From the NCBI GenBank assembly GCA_041571435.1, contig JBFFUI010000052.1:1-10665 (forward strand): a DNA stretch of 10,665 nt, read 5' to 3'. Position 1 is the first letter of the stretch, and each line of letters opens with the position of its first letter. The notes beneath the pieces are model-generated. The model worked only from the letters and a program-made list of their open reading frames with translations. It did not search any database and had not been told where the DNA came from. Origin of the DNA: Sulfurimonadaceae bacterium (lineage in GTDB: Bacteria; Campylobacterota; Campylobacteria; Campylobacterales; Sulfurimonadaceae). Positions 2,281 to 9,869 of this stretch are shown here, piece after piece. Position numbers and translations under genes: made by a program.

Positions 2281-2309
2281 TCTTCAAAATCGTTAAAGCT
2301 TCTCTGGAA

Positions 2310-2315
2310 TATAAT
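2310..2315 (+). promoter_or_regulatory. Putative -10 box for the ncRNA-RT unit
   Basis: Perfect TATAAT predicts a start near 2321-2323, which is where the a2-like arm begins. Confidence 0.65.
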
Positions 2316-2321
2316 GGTTGC

Positions 2322-2506
2322 AAGGCAGTAGCTATTTACGATTTCGATCGTGTTCAGATGCGTTCTTGTAGTGCGTTTCGCCTACTCTTTTTGACGTATC
2401 TACCGAACTCCGTGCTGCCTGATTCATACCCAAACCCCGATGTAGAAAATGCGGACGTATTACTATATATAATAACTCTTGCTGCCTCGAGGTTTGTGTA
2501 TATGAA
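2322..2506 (+). ncRNA. Putative retron-like ncRNA (msr-msd) / structured leader of the RT gene
   Basis: AGGCAGTA (2323-2330) is complementary, with one G-U, to TGCTGCCT at both 2413-2420 and 2480-2487. G2331 follows in an AGC context. Hairpin ACGAT-TTCG-ATCGT 2338-2351. Stem AGATGCGT/ACGTATCT 2356-2401 encloses GTAG-T-GCG-TTT-CGC-CTAC. Long stem 2423-2440/2487-2506. Directly upstream of a retron-type RT. The 3' boundary is uncertain. Confidence 0.7.
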
Positions 2507-2514
2507 AAGGCGGT

Positions 2515-4098
2515 ATGATGAAAAAACAGTACAAGATGATCAAACTTCCAAAAGGCAGAGGAACGTTCCGGACCATCTATGCCCCTTCCAAACCCTACAA
2601 GAGAAAACTCGCATCATTTTTGCTTGACCTGCAGCAAAAAGTCCATAACGCGGATCATGATGAGATCGTCCACGGTTTTATGCGTGGCCGCGGTCCGGTC
2701 AGCAACGCGCTGAAACATGTGGGATACGCCTACACCCTCTCCCTTGATCTGAAAGATTTTTTTGACAGTGTGACCTCAGAGATGGTCGAAGAGTATCTCA
2801 GTGAGGAGGAGCGCGAACTCTGTTTTATAGACGGCATCGCCAGACAGGGCCTTCCGACAAGCCCGCTTATTGCAAACATGGCACTGCTGAAGCTTGACAG
2901 ACAGATCAAGGATGCTATTGCGGAGGAGGGGGTCTTTACCGTCTATACCCGCTATGCAGATGATCTGATCTTCTCTTTCAACCATGAAGCGTTCGCGCCA
3001 ACTCTGGAGACTCTGGTCGAGAAGATCATGACTGAGGGAGGCTTTCAGCTTAACCGTAAAAAGAGAAGACTGCAGAGTGCCAAAAACGGTCGACGCATGA
3101 TCACCGGTATCGCCGTAGACGAACACGGCATCCACCCAAGCCGAAAACTCAAACGCCGTATCCGTGCAGCGGTACACCAAAAAAACAGAGAATCGGCCTT
3201 TGGCCTGCTCTCGTGGGCGGAGTGCAAAGAGCCCAAAGCTTTTTACACCGATCGCGATCTGCTGAACAAAAACATTTTTAGAGAGGAAGCTCTCGACCTC
3301 TCCAATGATTTTTATCTCTCCGATCTGCTTTCGTTTGAGGCGTATGTCGATGCGGTAGAGGAAGATTTCGGCAACTCGGATTTGGCGCATGAACATGACA
3401 GAGAGAAGTGGGAAAGTCAAAAAAGCGCCTTTCTGGCACAGCGTGAAGCGTTTTACCAAAAGGAGAAGCAACTTGCTGATGCGGCTCGAAAAGTGGCTCG
3501 AGAAGATATGGAGAAACATTTTATTGAAGAGGAGGAAGCGGATCAGAAAGAGGAGATGCCGCTTCGCCAGAGAGAGACTGTCCCCAAACCTCCTCCTCGA
3601 CCGGCCACGGCTTTTGAGAAGAAGGAAGAAAAGCAAAAGGAGCTCAACATCGACTTTGATACGTTAAAAGAGATTGAACAGGAAGAGGTGGCAAATTTTC
3701 AAAACGAGAAAAAAGCGCATCGCCGAAAAAGAGAGGCGATCGCAAGTGCCAATGAGGAGAATGAGGCGAAGAGAAGGTCGCTGAACAAAGTGTTTATGGC
3801 CAGTCTCTTGCCGATAGTGCTGTTTCTTGGCGCGATGAGCTACTACTTTTCGGCTACAGAGATTAAGAAAAAAGCAGCGTATCCTCTCTTCGTCAATGTA
3901 ACGCCCTTTGATGCAAAAGTGCAGATTATGAATATTTCTGAAGCGTATGCGACGGGGATTGAGCTAAAGCCCGGAGAGTACGATATACGTATCTCTAAAC
4001 AAGGCTACAACCCCCAACGCTTCTGGATTACGATGGGACAGGAACCGCTTGTCGTAACCCGGGAACTGACCAAGGTCAAGAAACGCAAGGTCTATTAA
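2515..4098 (+). CDS. Retron-type reverse transcriptase fused to a charged linker, a single TM helix and a C-terminal PEGA-like domain
   Basis: RT aa 1-241: LPK..R.IYAP, HGF, NALKH (aa 64-68, retron region X), DLKDFF, QGLPTSP, YTRYADD (YADD aa 147-150), N.KK, ITG (aa 196-198, VTG-like region Y). Aa 242-425 is rich in E/K/R. Aa 426-445 VFMASLLPIVLFLGAMSYYF is hydrophobic. Aa 456-520 LFVNVTPFDAKV...LKPGEYDIRISKQGY matches the PEGA pattern. RBS AAAAGG 2505-2510 is better spaced for ATG 2518. Confidence 0.9.
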   Translation: MMKKQYKMIKLPKGRGTFRTIYAPSKPYKRKLASFLLDLQQKVHNADHDEIVHGFMRGRGPVSNALKHVGYAYTLSLDLKDFFDSVTSEMVEEYLSEEERELCFIDGIARQGLPTSPLIANMALLKLDRQIKDAIAEEGVFTVYTRYADDLIFSFNHEAFAPTLETLVEKIMTEGGFQLNRKKRRLQSAKNGRRMITGIAVDEHGIHPSRKLKRRIRAAVHQKNRESAFGLLSWAECKEPKAFYTDRDLLNKNIFREEALDLSNDFYLSDLLSFEAYVDAVEEDFGNSDLAHEHDREKWESQKSAFLAQREAFYQKEKQLADAARKVAREDMEKHFIEEEEADQKEEMPLRQRETVPKPPPRPATAFEKKEEKQKELNIDFDTLKEIEQEEVANFQNEKKAHRRKREAIASANEENEAKRRSLNKVFMASLLPIVLFLGAMSYYFSATEIKKKAAYPLFVNVTPFDAKVQIMNISEAYATGIELKPGEYDIRISKQGYNPQRFWITMGQEPLVVTRELTKVKKRKVY

Positions 4099-4703
4099 GC
4101 TTTAGAGGCGGTCATTAAAAAGAGCGGGTACTCGCTGCCATTCTCTTTTGTCACTGTGTGGGCTCGTTCAAACCTTACATCGGTAAAACCGTACTTTCTT
4201 GCTATTTCGGCCAACTTCTCCTGATCAAAGCCAAAATGGAAAACCCCTTCATTGCCATGGGCGTGAAAGCTTCCATCCTCCTCTTCAAGATCGGCAATGG
4301 CAATAAACCCTTTTGGCTGCAGTAGAGCAGAGAAGGTCTTGAACAGAGCATCCAAATCCTCGATATGGTGCATGCTCATAGAACTGACGATGCCGTCAAA
4401 CTGTTTTTCAGATGAAAACTGCAGGATGTCACTGTGCACGGTCTCAATCGTACAGTCCTCCCATATTTTGGCATTGACCTCCAACTGGTTCAGCATTTCC
4501 TGTGAGAAGTCAAGTGCTGTCATATGCCCTACGAAGGGGCAGAGGTGTTTGGTCAGAAGGCCGGTACCGGCACCGAAATCCAGCAGATGCATCTCTTTGG
4601 AAAGCGCCAGTGTATTGAGAATGGCATCGGCGATATTTGAGGCAAGCTGCTGTCGGGTCTGAGAGCTGTCCCATTCCTTAGCGACTTTGTCGAAACGTGA
4701 CAT
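4095..4703 (-). CDS. Class I SAM-dependent methyltransferase
   Basis: Motif I LLDFGAGTG, LDFS.EML, FDGIVSSMSMHH, L.PKG.I.I.D; N-terminal FD..A..WD; RBS AAGGAG. Confidence 0.93.
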   Translation of the reverse strand: MSRFDKVAKEWDSSQTRQQLASNIADAILNTLALSKEMHLLDFGAGTGLLTKHLCPFVGHMTALDFSQEMLNQLEVNAKIWEDCTIETVHSDILQFSSEKQFDGIVSSMSMHHIEDLDALFKTFSALLQPKGFIAIADLEEEDGSFHAHGNEGVFHFGFDQEKLAEIARKYGFTDVRFERAHTVTKENGSEYPLFLMTASKA

Positions 4704-8612: not shown

Positions 8613-9869
8613 ATGAGTACAAAAGCAGATTTGATCGTAGGGATACAATGGGGTGACGAAGGCAAGGGGAAGATCGTTGATGCCCTCGCATGCAAATATG
8701 ACATGGTGTGCCGAAGTCAAGGTGGTCATAATGCTGGCCATACGATCTGGGTAGACGGTGTCAAATATGCACTTCACCTTATCCCATCGGGTGTTCTTAA
8801 CCCTGATGCTATCAACGTTGTCGGCAACGGTGTTGTCCTCTCTCCGGAGTCGATCATCAAAGAGATGGAACAGTTTGACGGGCTGGAAGGTCGTCTCTAT
8901 ATTTCTGACAAAGCACACCTGAACCTCGGTTACCATGCACTGATCGACCAGGCAAAAGAGCGTCTAAAAGGTGACAAAGCGATCGGTACGACCGGAAAAG
9001 GTATCGGGCCGGCATATTCGGACAAGATCAACCGTACCGGCTTCAGAGTCGGTGAACTACTGGATCCTGCCAAACTATGCCAAGGTATTTTGGACTATTT
9101 TGAGCAGAACCGTGCGATCTTTGATGTCCTTGAGATCGCTACACCAAAAGAGAGTGAACTGCTGGCAGAGCTTGAAGGGTACAAAGCGAAGCTGGCACCG
9201 TTTATCACTGACACGACGCAGATGGTCTGGAAAGCACTCGATGAAGATAACAAGAAAGTACTGCTTGAAGGTGCACAGGGAACACTGCTTGACATCGATC
9301 ACGGCACCTACCCGTATGTCACATCATCATCGACAGTCAGTGCCGGTGCCTGTACGGGTCTGGGTATCAACCCAAAAGATATCGGCAAGGTGATCGGAAT
9401 CGTCAAAGCGTACTGTACCCGTGTCGGTAACGGTCCGTTCCCGAGTGAGGATTTCGGTGAAGACGGTAAACGTCTCGGCGAACAGGGGCATGAGTTCGGA
9501 ACGACAACGGGACGTGCGCGTCGATGCGGTTGGTTTGATGCTGTTGCGACGCGACACGCTTGCCGACTGAATGGTGTAGATGAGCTCGCCTTGATGAAAC
9601 TGGATGTCCTTGACGGCTTTGATGAAGTGAAGGTCTGTGTTGCCTATAGCTACAACGGTGAAGAGATCAACTACATGCCGGCAGACCTGGAAAATGTCAC
9701 GCCGGTCTATAAAACATTCAAAGGGTGGACAGGCTCTGTCGGTGTACGCGAGTTTGATAAACTTCCGCAGGATGCACAGGACTTTGTCAAGACGATCGAA
9801 GAGATCAGCAAGACAAAAGTCGGCATCATCTCGACATCACCTGAACGCGAAGACACGATCCACATGTAA
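8613..9869 (+). CDS. purA: Adenylosuccinate synthetase
   Basis: [64 protein letters not shown]. Confidence 0.99.

What the first reader, a model, noticed from the sequence alone, without database searches (positions are those of the whole stretch)
2310..2487. Retron msr-msd-like ncRNA directly upstream of the RT
Seen: TATAAT at 2310-2315, an arm AGGCAGTA (2323-2330) at the predicted start, and G2331 in AGC context. These are followed by a UUCG hairpin (2338-2351), a larger interrupted stem-loop (2356-2401) and a complementary arm TGCTGCCT. Known: retron ncRNAs are closed by a1/a2 repeats and prime from the 2'-OH of a G just 3' of the 5' arm, often within AGC. Inference: G2331 is the branch point. 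With the arm at 2413-2420, the msDNA would be about 60 nt or less, complementary to about 2353-2412, with a GCGAAACGC-capped hairpin. With the arm at 2480-2487, the template would start near 2479.
Basis: partly seen in the sequence, partly recalled or inferred. Interest (0 to 1): 0.8.

Follow-up and report, generated by a model that had tools for sequence, protein, structure and literature searches.

The report
Compact retron RNA with membrane-anchored RT
A small, strongly conserved folded RNA of the retron type sits just upstream of a retron-like reverse transcriptase that carries an unusual membrane anchor, and the pair is inherited at one fixed chromosomal spot throughout a genus of sulfur-oxidising bacteria.

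Summary
TATAAT (2310-2315), arm AGGCAGTA (2323-2330), G2331 in AGC, the UUCG hairpin (2338-2351), the interrupted stem-loop (2356-2401) and two TGCTGCCT copies are all there. In 27 distinct homologous loci the ~98-nt element 2323-2420 is better conserved than the RT gene. It folds into an a1/a2-closed structure: 33 pairs, 97% paired, 9 pairs with compensatory changes, 0 of 500 shuffles as good. The real 3' arm is 2413-2420. The copy at 2480-2487 lies in a lineage-specific insert and is exact only in this window.

The RT (2515-4098) is retron-clade: NAxxH, ITG and YADD motifs, best HMM and structure matches to retron RTs. It fits none of the 13 published types, because it is fused to a long helix, one transmembrane helix and a PEGA-like domain. 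RNA and RT occur once per genome in 14 of 15 genomes of one Sulfurimonadaceae genus, always next to rdgB.

One complication: the cap of the large stem-loop (GNGCG-NUU-CGCC) is shared with distant RT relatives. There it caps the first hairpin, and a second long hairpin follows before a2. Verdict: a real retron-type ncRNA, a new variant of a known kind.

The parts
2310..2315 (+). -10 promoter hexamer TATAAT of the ncRNA-RT transcript; predicted start about 2321-2323
   Evidence: Invariant in 27 of 27 aligned sequences, while the 6-8 nt between it and a1 vary. The simple sigma-70 scan does not call it because there is no -35 match. The start site is inferred, not shown.
2323..2330 (+). a1, the 5' arm (AGGCAGUA) of the closing helix
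   Evidence: Pairs with 2413-2420. 8 pairs, 98.6% of cells paired. G-C to A-U double change in L035; U.G to C-G in L013 and L016. RNAalifold finds 7 of the 8 pairs on its own.
2331..2331 (+). Candidate branching (priming) G, in A-G-C, first unpaired base after a1
   Evidence: Invariant in 27 of 27. It faces invariant G2412. In 5 of 8 distant relatives a1 is also followed by G-C. The priming role is inferred from retron biology (Mestre 2020, PMC7736814, passages read).
2337..2351 (+). SL1, a short hairpin with UUCG loop (5 bp in the window, 6 bp in most relatives); msr-type short stem-loop
   Evidence: 6 pairs, 100% of cells paired, 2 pairs with double changes (L014, L035).
2353..2407 (+). SL-A, a long interrupted stem-loop: outer 2353-2355/2405-2407, main 2356-2364/2393-2401, cap hairpin 2368-2385 (GUAG-U-GCG-UUU-CGC-CUAC). 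Either the msd template or an RT-recognition hairpin.
   Evidence: Main stem: 6 of 9 pairs show compensatory double changes. The cap is nearly invariant in the family. The same cap motif lies upstream of 13 of 47 distant RT relatives.
2408..2412 (+). 5-nt linker ending in G2412, the G opposing the branch G; first template base if priming is canonical
   Evidence: C2411 and G2412 invariant in 27 of 27. G precedes a2 in 5 of the 8 relatives as well.
2413..2420 (+). a2, the 3' arm (UGCUGCCU) of the closing helix
   Evidence: Conserved in all 27. In 23 of them the RT start codon follows within about 15-30 nt.
2421..2514 (+). Lineage-specific spacer between a2 and the RT start. It holds a second TGCTGCCT (2480-2487), a TATAAT (2468-2473) and an a1-like AAGGCGGTA (2507-2515) over the RBS and start codon.
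   Evidence: Present only in the window, L004, L006 and L007. Homologous at both ends; L006 and L007 carry an extra ~80-nt hairpin. The second arm copy is TGCTACCT in L004 and further changed in L006 and L007.
2515..4098 (+). Retron-clade reverse transcriptase (aa 1-~242) fused to a conserved domain of unknown function (aa ~243-320), a charged long helix, one TM helix (aa ~422-440; nt 3778-3834) and a PEGA-like beta-sandwich (aa ~456-517; nt 3880-4065)
   Evidence: RVT_1 E 1.5e-17. PADLOC retron RT models E 1e-43 to 1e-32. NAxxH (64-68), YADD (147-150) and ITG (196-198) conserved in 24 homologs. Foldseek top hits are retron RTs Eco7, Ec86, Ec83, Eco2 and Ec78. TM in all 50 family proteins. PEGA 14.8 bits here, 25 bits in homolog P0029.

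Best explanation
Positions 2323-2420 encode a compact (~98 nt) retron-type non-coding RNA. It is probably transcribed from the invariant TATAAT at 2310-2315 together with the downstream RT gene.

The RNA folds into a three-way junction. Helix a1/a2 (2323-2330 with 2413-2420) closes it. Inside lie a short UUCG hairpin (SL1, 2337-2351) and a long interrupted stem-loop with an almost invariant cap (SL-A, 2353-2407).

The retron-clade RT encoded at 2515-4098 is inferred to bind this RNA. It would prime DNA synthesis from the 2'-OH of G2331, the first unpaired base after a1 (opposite G2412), and copy the template leftwards from 2412 into SL-A. The DNA is therefore at most about 60 nt. It may be much shorter (roughly 20-25 nt) if the RT stays bound to the conserved cap.

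The RT is not soluble. Its C-terminus carries a long helix, one membrane-spanning helix and a periplasmic PEGA-like domain. The RT-RNA(-DNA) complex would therefore sit at the inner face of the cytoplasmic membrane, and the fused tail takes the place of the separate effector of other retrons.

Shown here: the sequence elements, the conserved fold with covariation, the retron affinity of the RT, the fusion architecture, single copy, and genus-wide synteny. Inferred: transcript ends, branching at G2331, the extent of reverse transcription, and any defence or other function.
For: 1. Conservation. All 16 loci first retrieved around RT homologs have the element upstream. With metagenome and genome contigs added it is found in 43 loci giving 27 distinct sequences. 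Mean column identity is 89%, against 59-91% protein identity for the RT.

2. Structure. 33 pairs, 97.1% of 888 cells paired, against 29.5-49.8% when partners are slid by 1-3 columns. 9 pairs and 25 cells have changes on both sides. 0 of 500 shuffles reach any of the five measures. RNAalifold predicts the same helices independently, 29 pairs, 9 of them compensatory. The single-sequence MFE is identical, z -3.58.

3. Retron hallmarks. The a1/a2 closure co-varies (L035 AGACAGUA/UACUGUCU). G follows a1 and G precedes a2 in 27 of 27, matching the 'two opposing G residues' and 'conserved branching G' described in Mestre 2020 (PMC7736814, passages). There is one short hairpin and one long hairpin.

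4. The RT. Best PADLOC hits are all retron RTs (RT_II-A 1.6e-43, XIII, III-A). In NCBIfam, retron St85 scores 148.8 bits, against group II intron 52 and Drt2 38. NAxxH, YADD and ITG are conserved. Foldseek ranks 1-17 are all retron RT structures.

5. Co-occurrence. The RT is in 14 of 15 other genomes of the genus, and the covariance model hits once per genome in the same 14, with 0 of 135 genomes of 22 other genera. The one miss is a 56%-complete genome. There is one hit in the window's own genome, at 2321-2422, 107 bits.

6. Relatives. Eight distant RT relatives have canonical a1/a2-closed ncRNAs with the same cap motif, so the RNA type belongs to this RT clade.
Against: No Rfam family matches the region, even at E up to 10.

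The RT scores below the curated cut-off of every NCBIfam retron model (148.8 vs 235 bits for St85). PADLOC models cover only the RT core.

The long hairpin next to a2 that defines the msd in the relatives is missing. Only 30-31 nt lie between the cap motif and a2 here, against 74-129 nt in the 8 relatives. The only possible template is a hairpin whose cap looks like an RT-recognition element.

The DNA copy of the window's own SL-A is not stably folded (-5.2 kcal/mol, z -0.59, 55 of 200 shuffles as good). Over the family the RNA fold is somewhat better supported than the cDNA fold (mean z -2.58 vs -2.25). In the core stem pairs there are 8 G.U cells and no A.C cells, which is the signature of selection on RNA rather than on the DNA copy.

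In the window, a2 has a competing partner at the RBS.

No transcript or RT-DNA data exist for this organism.
Confidence: 0.8

Rival explanations
1. Retron RNA that has lost its msd. SL-A is the homolog of the RT-recognition (msr) hairpin of the relatives, and the classical template hairpin was deleted in the ancestor of this genus. The RT still binds the RNA and the a1/a2-G junction is kept, but it makes only a very short DNA (a few to about 25 nt) or none. The conserved complex then works as a ribonucleoprotein at the membrane rather than as an msDNA producer.
For: The cap motif G-N-GCG-NUU-CGC lies upstream of 13 of 47 distant RT relatives. My estimate of the number expected by chance is about 0.02.

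In the 8 relatives where a1/a2 could be assigned, the motif caps the first hairpin after a1, and a second, variable long hairpin lies between it and a2.

In a FastTree tree of the RT domain, motif-bearing relatives fall in the sister clades and outside the family, so the motif is ancestral and the second hairpin was lost (support values not inspected).

Stem pairing is maintained at RNA level even where the DNA copy would not pair (window, L009, L031, L035).
Against: The catalytic YADD and the NAxxH and ITG motifs are invariant or nearly so in 24 homologs. The two opposing Gs and a1/a2 are invariant or co-vary. Those features are needed only for priming.

SL-A has about 19 bp of stem, within the 10-50 bp range given for msd hairpins, and SL1 fits an msr hairpin (Mestre 2020, passages).

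In most family members the cDNA of SL-A would fold well.
Confidence: 0.3
2. The functional 3' arm is the second TGCTGCCT (2480-2487), so the ncRNA is about 165 nt and the template starts near 2479.
For: There is an exact second copy in the window, and with the preceding T it could form 9 pairs with AGGCAGTAG. In L006 and L007 the homologous insert carries a long hairpin that resembles an msd.
Against: The insert is absent from 23 of 27 sequences, including the earliest-branching ones (L014, L035, L028). The copy is TGCTACCT in L004 (91% identical RT) and further changed in L006 and L007. Using it would bury G2331 in the helix, and no G precedes it. Region 2421-2479 has no stable hairpin.
Confidence: 0.04
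3. The element is only a cis-regulatory leader (an attenuator or translational switch) of the RT mRNA, or an unrelated small RNA, and is not a template for reverse transcription.
For: It lies in the 5' UTR. In the window and L004, a2 can pair alternatively with the RBS. There is no Rfam hit and no expression data.
Against: The a1/a2 + G/G + hairpin architecture matches the retron definition. It recurs, with different sequences, upstream of distant members of the same RT clade. The RBS-pairing alternative exists in only 2 of 27 sequences. No terminator-like site lies in 2150-2650.
Confidence: 0.06

Closest known systems
Canonical retron msr-msd ncRNA + RT (e.g. Retron-Eco1/Ec86, Retron-Sen2/St85; Mestre et al. 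2020 classification)
   Same: The ncRNA is upstream of the RT on the same strand. Terminal inverted repeats a1/a2 close the fold. A conserved G follows a1 and faces a G before a2. There is a short hairpin followed by a long one. The RT has NAxxH, YADD and V/ITG motifs, and its fold is closest to solved retron RTs.
   Different: The RNA is very small (~98 nt), with only one long hairpin, and that hairpin's cap is conserved across the RT clade instead of being the variable part. The RT lacks about 20-45 N-terminal residues of the reference models (model positions start at 22-47). There is no separate effector gene: the flanks are rdgB and, in the window, a convergent methyltransferase gene that many loci lack. 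The RT is only 24-29% identical to solved retron RTs.
Single-gene retrons with RT-fused effectors (types I-C RT-Toprim/Eco2, VII-A1 RT-DUF3800, XI RT-protease, XII RT-TIR)
   Same: One ORF combines a retron RT with a C-terminal module and has an upstream ncRNA. PADLOC models of these types hit the RT core at E 1e-41 to 1e-35.
   Different: The fused module here is a conserved alpha domain, a long helix, one TM helix and a PEGA-like periplasmic domain. None of the four published fusion domains is detected.
Type IV retron (Retron-Eco6/Ec48) with a membrane effector
   Same: A membrane-inserted component is the presumed output.
   Different: [quoted passage not shown] Here a single TM is fused to the RT and is followed by an extracytoplasmic domain.
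Unclassified retron-like RT clade found here (relatives of about 300-450 aa at 40-51% identity; loci L038-L078)
   Same: Same RT clade, and the same ncRNA cap motif GNGCG-NUU-CGC on an interrupted hairpin next to the a1-G junction.
   Different: The relatives have a second long hairpin before a2, lack SL1, lack the TM/PEGA tail, and come from varied metagenomes rather than one genus.
Myxobacterial retrons (Mx162/Mx65 group), reported as vertically inherited
   Same: A retron kept at genus or higher level rather than scattered. The claim about myxobacteria is recalled; I read no paper on it here.
   Different: Different RT clade (type XIII), with a large msDNA and separate accessory genes.

Membership tests
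Retron (RT + msr-msd ncRNA) | RT of the retron clade with region X NAxxH, catalytic YADD and region Y VTG | tested here: met
   N64-A65-L-K67-H68, Y147-A-D149-D150 and I196-T197-G198 (I for V), invariant or at least 90% conserved in 24 homologs. Best HMM hits are all retron RTs. Foldseek ranks 1-17 are retron RTs. Scores are below the NCBIfam cut-offs of the specific retron families.
Retron (RT + msr-msd ncRNA) | Structured ncRNA next to the RT, closed by complementary a1/a2 ends | tested here: met
   8-bp a1/a2, 98.6% of cells paired, with one double and three single compensating changes. Found independently by RNAalifold.
Retron (RT + msr-msd ncRNA) | Conserved branching G at the 3' end of a1, opposite a G before a2 | tested here: met
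   G2331 and G2412 are invariant in 27 of 27. Only position and conservation were tested; 2'-5' branching itself is not testable here.
Retron (RT + msr-msd ncRNA) | msr with 1-3 short stem-loops (3-10 bp) | tested here: met
   SL1, 6 bp, UUCG loop, 2 compensatory pairs.
Retron (RT + msr-msd ncRNA) | msd as a long, variable hairpin (10-50 bp) adjacent to a2 | tested here: inconclusive
   SL-A has about 19 bp and lies 5 nt from a2. However, its cap is conserved and homologous to the a1-proximal hairpin of the relatives, whose separate a2-proximal hairpin is missing here.
Retron (RT + msr-msd ncRNA) | Production of multicopy branched RNA-DNA (msDNA) | not testable with these tools
   No RNA run holds the locus and only assembled contigs are on offer. 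Needs expression and RT-DNA purification.
Retron types I-XIII (Mestre 2020) | A type-defining effector protein or RT-fused domain (Toprim, DUF3800, protease, TIR, 2TM protein, NDT, PRTase and so on) | tested here: not met
   Pfam finds only RVT_1 plus a weak PEGA. The neighbouring genes are rdgB, a methyltransferase, an MFS transporter and a rhodanese. No PADLOC retron model exceeds 147 bits or covers the C-terminus.
DRT2 / DRT9-type defence RTs with upstream ncRNA | RT of the UG2/UG28 clades | tested here: not met
   NCBIfam Drt2 scores 38.4 bits against a cut-off of 390. DRT9 and DRT2 structures rank below all retron RTs.
PEGA domain (PF08308) | Score above the Pfam gathering threshold | tested here: inconclusive
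   Window protein 14.8 bits, below 20.8. Homolog P0029 scores 25.0 bits and P0048 17.0. AF2 gives a confident beta-sandwich at 456-517. A PEGA protein of the same genome matches this region at 34% identity.

The most novel reading that the evidence does not exclude
A domesticated retron. In one genus of Sulfurimonadaceae a retron has become a fixed, vertically inherited chromosomal gene. Its RT is tethered to the inner membrane and carries a periplasmic PEGA-like domain. Its RNA has lost the classical msd hairpin, so the enzyme either copies its own recognition hairpin or makes only a very short primer-like DNA. The complex would couple an envelope or periplasmic signal to reverse transcription, or the reverse. 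That would be a retron mode without a separate effector and without a conventional msDNA.
Probability: 0.25. Interest if true: 0.8.

Novelty: new variant of a known kind. Interest (0 to 1): 0.6.

Why it matters
Retrons are valued both as anti-phage systems and as in-cell DNA writers.

This family offers one of the most compact closed retron-type RNAs I am aware of (about 98 nt). Its structure is defined by covariation, and the conserved cap motif probably marks the RT-binding site of a whole unclassified RT clade.

The family also shows an RT fused to a membrane anchor with an extracytoplasmic domain. I found no such architecture in the 13-type classification, or in a 2026 metagenome survey whose main text I checked by term search only.

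Its fixed position next to rdgB in 14 of 15 genomes of a genus is unlike the patchy, island-borne distribution expected of defence retrons. The flanking genes are of similar divergence. Together these raise the question of a non-defence, housekeeping-like role.

Because the usual template hairpin is missing, measuring what DNA (if any) this RT makes would show how template choice and termination are set in retrons.

Tried and rejected
- **Rfam:** scan of the whole window at E up to 10 found nothing in 2300-2520; the only hit is an irrelevant lncRNA match at 9632-9697.
- **Sigma-70 and terminator scan of 2150-2650:** the TATAAT at 2310 is not called (no -35 match), and no terminator-like site was found.
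- **18-nt cap pattern across genome contigs:** 116 stretches, about what I estimate chance would give. Among those shown, only the records titled Sulfurimonadaceae, Helicobacteraceae or Campylobacterales also matched the ncRNA by blastn (13 loci). One Sulfurimonadaceae hit (L112) is a chance match inside other sequence. The pattern alone is therefore not specific.
- **CM R1 over 60 loci of distant relatives:** only two weak partial hits, L074 at 13.4 bits and L040 at 10 bits. These gave the lead to the shared cap motif but are not significant themselves.
- **Sequencing runs:** no RNA holder listed, and all holders are kept as contigs. Read laying was therefore not used. Expression, transcript ends and RT-DNA remain untested.
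- **Supplements:** a search of the one held supplement of the retron census preprint (PMC10849725) for the cap motif gave 0 occurrences. Its Supplementary Table S1 and Figure S1 (ncRNA consensus structures per clade) could bear on whether this RNA type or RT clade is already catalogued.
- **ESM Atlas:** residues 236-527 gave no usable hit.
- **Earlier findings of this scan:** nothing for this genome or sequence. The word search gave two unrelated Ec48 notes.
- **Literature:** searches for retron with PEGA, Sulfurimonas, or 'type XIV' found nothing relevant. The term search in the 2026 SPIRE retron survey (PMC13712802) found 0 occurrences of transmembrane, membrane or Campylobacterota.
- **Tree:** the treekit run did not return. 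It was repeated with mafft and FastTree. Support values were not inspected, and two relatives (L038, L040) were mislabelled 'fam' by my 50.5% identity threshold.
- **G.U versus A.C counts and RNA versus cDNA folding** as a way to tell msd from msr: only a weak lean towards RNA-level selection.
- **Second arm at 2480-2487:** considered and rejected.
Full report
**1. The observation**

- TATAAT at 2310-2315.
- AGGCAGTA at 2323-2330.
- G2331 inside A-G-C.
- The hairpin ACGAT-TTCG-ATCGT at 2338-2351.
- An interrupted stem 2356-2364 / 2393-2401 around a cap hairpin at 2368-2385.
- TGCTGCCT at 2413-2420 and again at 2480-2487.

Those are the only two copies of the octamer in the window (0.28 expected; 7 of 200 shuffles give two or more). 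RNA 2322-2421 folds as its MFE into exactly the proposed architecture (-32.3 kcal/mol, z -3.58, 0 of 200 shuffles as stable).

When the longer stretch 2321-2514 is folded, the MFE instead pairs 2414-2420 with AGGCGGT at 2508-2514, over the RT ribosome-binding site. That competitor exists only in the window and its nearest relative.

**2. The neighbourhood**

- ORF 2515-4098 (+) encodes a 527-aa protein with an RVT_1 domain at residues 12-187.
- Upstream lies rdgB/Ham1 (1675-2280, +).
- Downstream lies a convergent methyltransferase gene (4095-4703, -).
- Further out are an MFS transporter, a rhodanese and uppP/BacA.

No defence-type neighbour is present. No terminator-like site separates the RNA from the RT gene.

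**3. Comparative evidence for the RNA**

RT homologs of 58-91% identity are known only from Sulfurimonadaceae and Campylobacterota records and metagenomes.

All 16 loci first retrieved around RT homologs carry the element upstream. After metagenome and genome contigs were added, blastn finds it in 43 loci, which give 27 distinct sequences. These align with 89% mean column identity over 2321-2422. That is higher than the RT protein identity of 59-91%.

The TATAAT is invariant, while the 6-8 nt after it vary.

On the alignment, the structure I wrote down has 33 pairs in 5 helices:
- 97.1% of 888 cells are paired, against 29.5-49.8% when partners are slid by 1-3 columns.
- 9 pairs and 25 cells carry changes on both sides.
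- 0 of 500 shuffles reach the observed value on any of the five measures.

RNAalifold, which was not given the structure, returns the same helices: 29 pairs, 9 of them with compensatory changes.

The most telling cases:
- a1/a2 becomes AGACAGUA/UACUGUCU in L035, whose RT is 51% identical.
- The main stem AGAUACGU/ACGUAUCC is replaced by GAAGUAUU/GAAUACUUC (L021), GAUGUAUC/GGAUGCAUC (L009) and GGAGUUGC/GGUAACUCU (L035).
- SL1 changes U-A and A-U pairs to A-U and G-C in L014.

G2331 and the opposing G2412 are invariant in 27 of 27.

A covariance model of the element finds one copy in the window's own genome, at 2321-2422 (107 bits). It finds one copy per genome in 14 of 15 other genomes of the genus and none in 135 genomes of 22 other genera of the family. 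Those 14 sequences helped build the model, so the informative parts are the single copy and the absence elsewhere.

**4. Which 3' arm**

In 23 of the 27 sequences the RT start codon follows the first TGCTGCCT within about 15-30 nt.

The window, L004, L006 and L007 carry an insert between this arm and the RT start. The insert is homologous at both ends, and L006 and L007 have an extra ~80-nt hairpin inside it.

The window's second TGCTGCCT aligns to TGCTACCT in L004 and to a further changed sequence in L006 and L007. The insert-bearing lineages are not the early branches of the family tree.

The conserved arm is therefore 2413-2420.

**5. The RT**

- All the best PADLOC hits are retron RT models (RT_II-A 1.6e-43, XIII 1e-42, III-A 2.5e-42, and so on).
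- The NCBIfam order is retron St85 (148.8 bits), Ec67, retron-TIR, then group II intron (52) and Drt2 (38). All are below the curated cut-offs.
- NAxxH (64-68), YADD (147-150) and ITG (196-198, in place of VTG) are invariant or nearly so in 24 homologs. These are the retron RT hallmarks named in Mestre 2020 (PMC7736814, passages).
- An AlphaFold model (mean pLDDT 70.5; RT core mostly 80-93) has its best PDB matches in retron RTs Eco7, Ec86, Ec83, Eco2, Ec78 and Eco8. DRT9, DRT2, group II and DGR RTs rank lower.
- The protein starts at model positions 22-47 of the reference RTs, so it lacks their N-terminal extension.

**6. The C-terminal half**

- Residues about 243-320 are strongly conserved but unexplained, and the AF2 confidence there is low.
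- A long charged helix follows (296-346), then a disordered linker, then a helix 381-444 that contains a hydrophobic segment at 422-440. That segment is present in all 50 family proteins and in none of the 71 more distant relatives at that position.
- Last comes a confident beta-sandwich at 456-517.
- Pfam PEGA scores 14.8 bits here (cut-off 20.8) but 25.0 bits in homolog P0029. A bona fide PEGA protein of the same genome matches this region at 34% identity.
- Basic residues precede the TM helix, which suggests an RT-in, PEGA-out topology. This is inference.

According to the Table 1 passages I read, the published RT fusions are Toprim (I-C), DUF3800 (VII-A1), protease (XI) and TIR (XII), and the membrane effector of type IV is a separate 2-TM protein. 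None of these fits.

I found no paper describing such a retron. The searches were retron with PEGA, with Sulfurimonas, and with 'type XIV'. The main text of the 2026 SPIRE survey holds no occurrence of transmembrane, membrane or Campylobacterota (term search). Supplements of Mestre 2020 could not be read.

**7. Distribution**

The RT is found in 14 of 15 other genomes of the genus. The one miss is 56% complete.

In 185 genomes of 22 other genera of the family, only three ~30%-identical RTs turn up.

The order MFS(-) - rdgB(+) - ncRNA - RT(+) - [methyltransferase(-)] - rhodanese(+) is kept in nearly all loci long enough to show it. Protein identities to the window are RdgB 82-99%, RT 59-91% and rhodanese 52-72%.

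The element thus behaves like a vertically inherited chromosomal gene of this genus, not like an island-borne defence cassette.

**8. The complication: what is the template?**

The covariance model picked up the cap of SL-A upstream of two distant RT relatives.

A motif scan then found G-N-GCG-NUU-CGC within 320 nt upstream of 13 of 47 distant relatives, whose RT domains are 34-51% identical. My estimate of the number expected by chance is about 0.02.

In eight of them I could assign an outer inverted repeat of 8-16 bp. For L038, L054 and L075 I took the second- or third-ranked helix, because the top one was the hairpin's own stem. Folding a1 to a2 gives the same plan in all eight: a1, often followed by G-C (5 of 8); then an interrupted hairpin capped by the motif; then a second long, sequence-variable hairpin; then a2, preceded by G in 5 of 8; then the RT.

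By the retron rule, the a2-proximal hairpin is the msd, and the motif-capped hairpin is on the msr side. The distance from motif to a2 is 74-129 nt in these relatives but 30-31 nt in the window family. The family has the extra SL1 instead.

In a FastTree tree of the RT domain, rooted on three distant RTs, the family is one clade, and motif-bearing relatives lie in its sister clades and outside (support values not inspected). The motif is therefore ancestral, and the second hairpin was most simply lost.

Two readings remain:
- (b) SL-A is still the RT-recognition hairpin, and the RT makes only a short DNA or none.

For (a): the catalytic and priming features are under strict conservation; SL-A has about 19 bp, within the msd range; and its cDNA would fold in most members.

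For (b): the cap is conserved across a clade that shares only the RT core. In addition, pairing is kept at the RNA level where the DNA copy would not pair:
- window cDNA z -0.59;
- L009, L031 and L035;
- 8 G.U cells against 0 A.C cells in core stem pairs.

I put (a) somewhat ahead of (b), but only sequencing of the RT-DNA can decide.

**9. Verdict**

The finding is real. It is a conserved, covariation-supported, retron-type ncRNA with its promoter, a1/a2, candidate branch G and RT.

It is a new variant of a known kind for four reasons: the unusually compact RNA lacking the separate msd hairpin of its relatives, an unclassified RT clade, a TM/PEGA-like fusion, and genus-wide vertical inheritance.

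Branching at G2331, the transcript ends, the DNA product and the biological role are inferred, not shown. No expression data were available.

Noticed in passing
window 2480-2515: In the window (and, with one mismatch, in L004) the spacer holds a2-like TGCTGCCT (2480-2487) and a1-like AAGGCGGTA (2507-2515) over the RBS and start codon. These can pair with each other, or the RBS copy can pair with the true a2 (MFE). This may be a translational switch for the RT. It is limited to 2 of 27 sequences.
   Followed up: partly
L006:3082-3285 (-) and L007:3079-3270 (-): The homologous spacer in two other genomes carries an extra ~80-nt long hairpin (GGGGGCTTGAG...CTCAAACCCCC). I did not check whether it is a small mobile repeat or an msd-like remnant.
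   Followed up: partly
window 2290-2309 and the same place in the other loci: A conserved GTTAAGCTT-like element lies about 10 nt upstream of the -10 box in most loci, too close for a standard -35. It may be a regulator site or a Campylobacterota-type promoter feature.
   Followed up: no
RT residues ~243-320 (window 3241-3474): Strongly conserved stretch after the RT core (F243 Y244 T245 D246 ... W299 ... F313 Y314 invariant in 24 homologs). It has no Pfam match, and the AF2 confidence is low over most of it.
   Followed up: partly
proteins P0079, P0087, P0103, P0117; PADLOC hit for P0079: Other members of the same unclassified RT clade are fused to a DarT-like domain (P0079, PADLOC DarT 8.6e-36) or to HAD and phosphoribosyltransferase domains (P0087, P0103, P0117). 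A large group of about 430 aa has a C-terminal domain without a Pfam match. The clade swaps C-terminal modules freely.
   Followed up: no
L003:718-2025 (-) (G000 contig C37): The same genome encodes a 435-aa protein with PEGA (27.4 bits) and Lcl_C domains. Its PEGA region is 34% identical to the RT's C-terminal domain.
   Followed up: partly
window 4095-4703 (-): The methyltransferase gene between the RT and the rhodanese is present in only some loci (for example absent in L005, L008, L010-L013). It is a variable insertion, not part of the retron.
   Followed up: no
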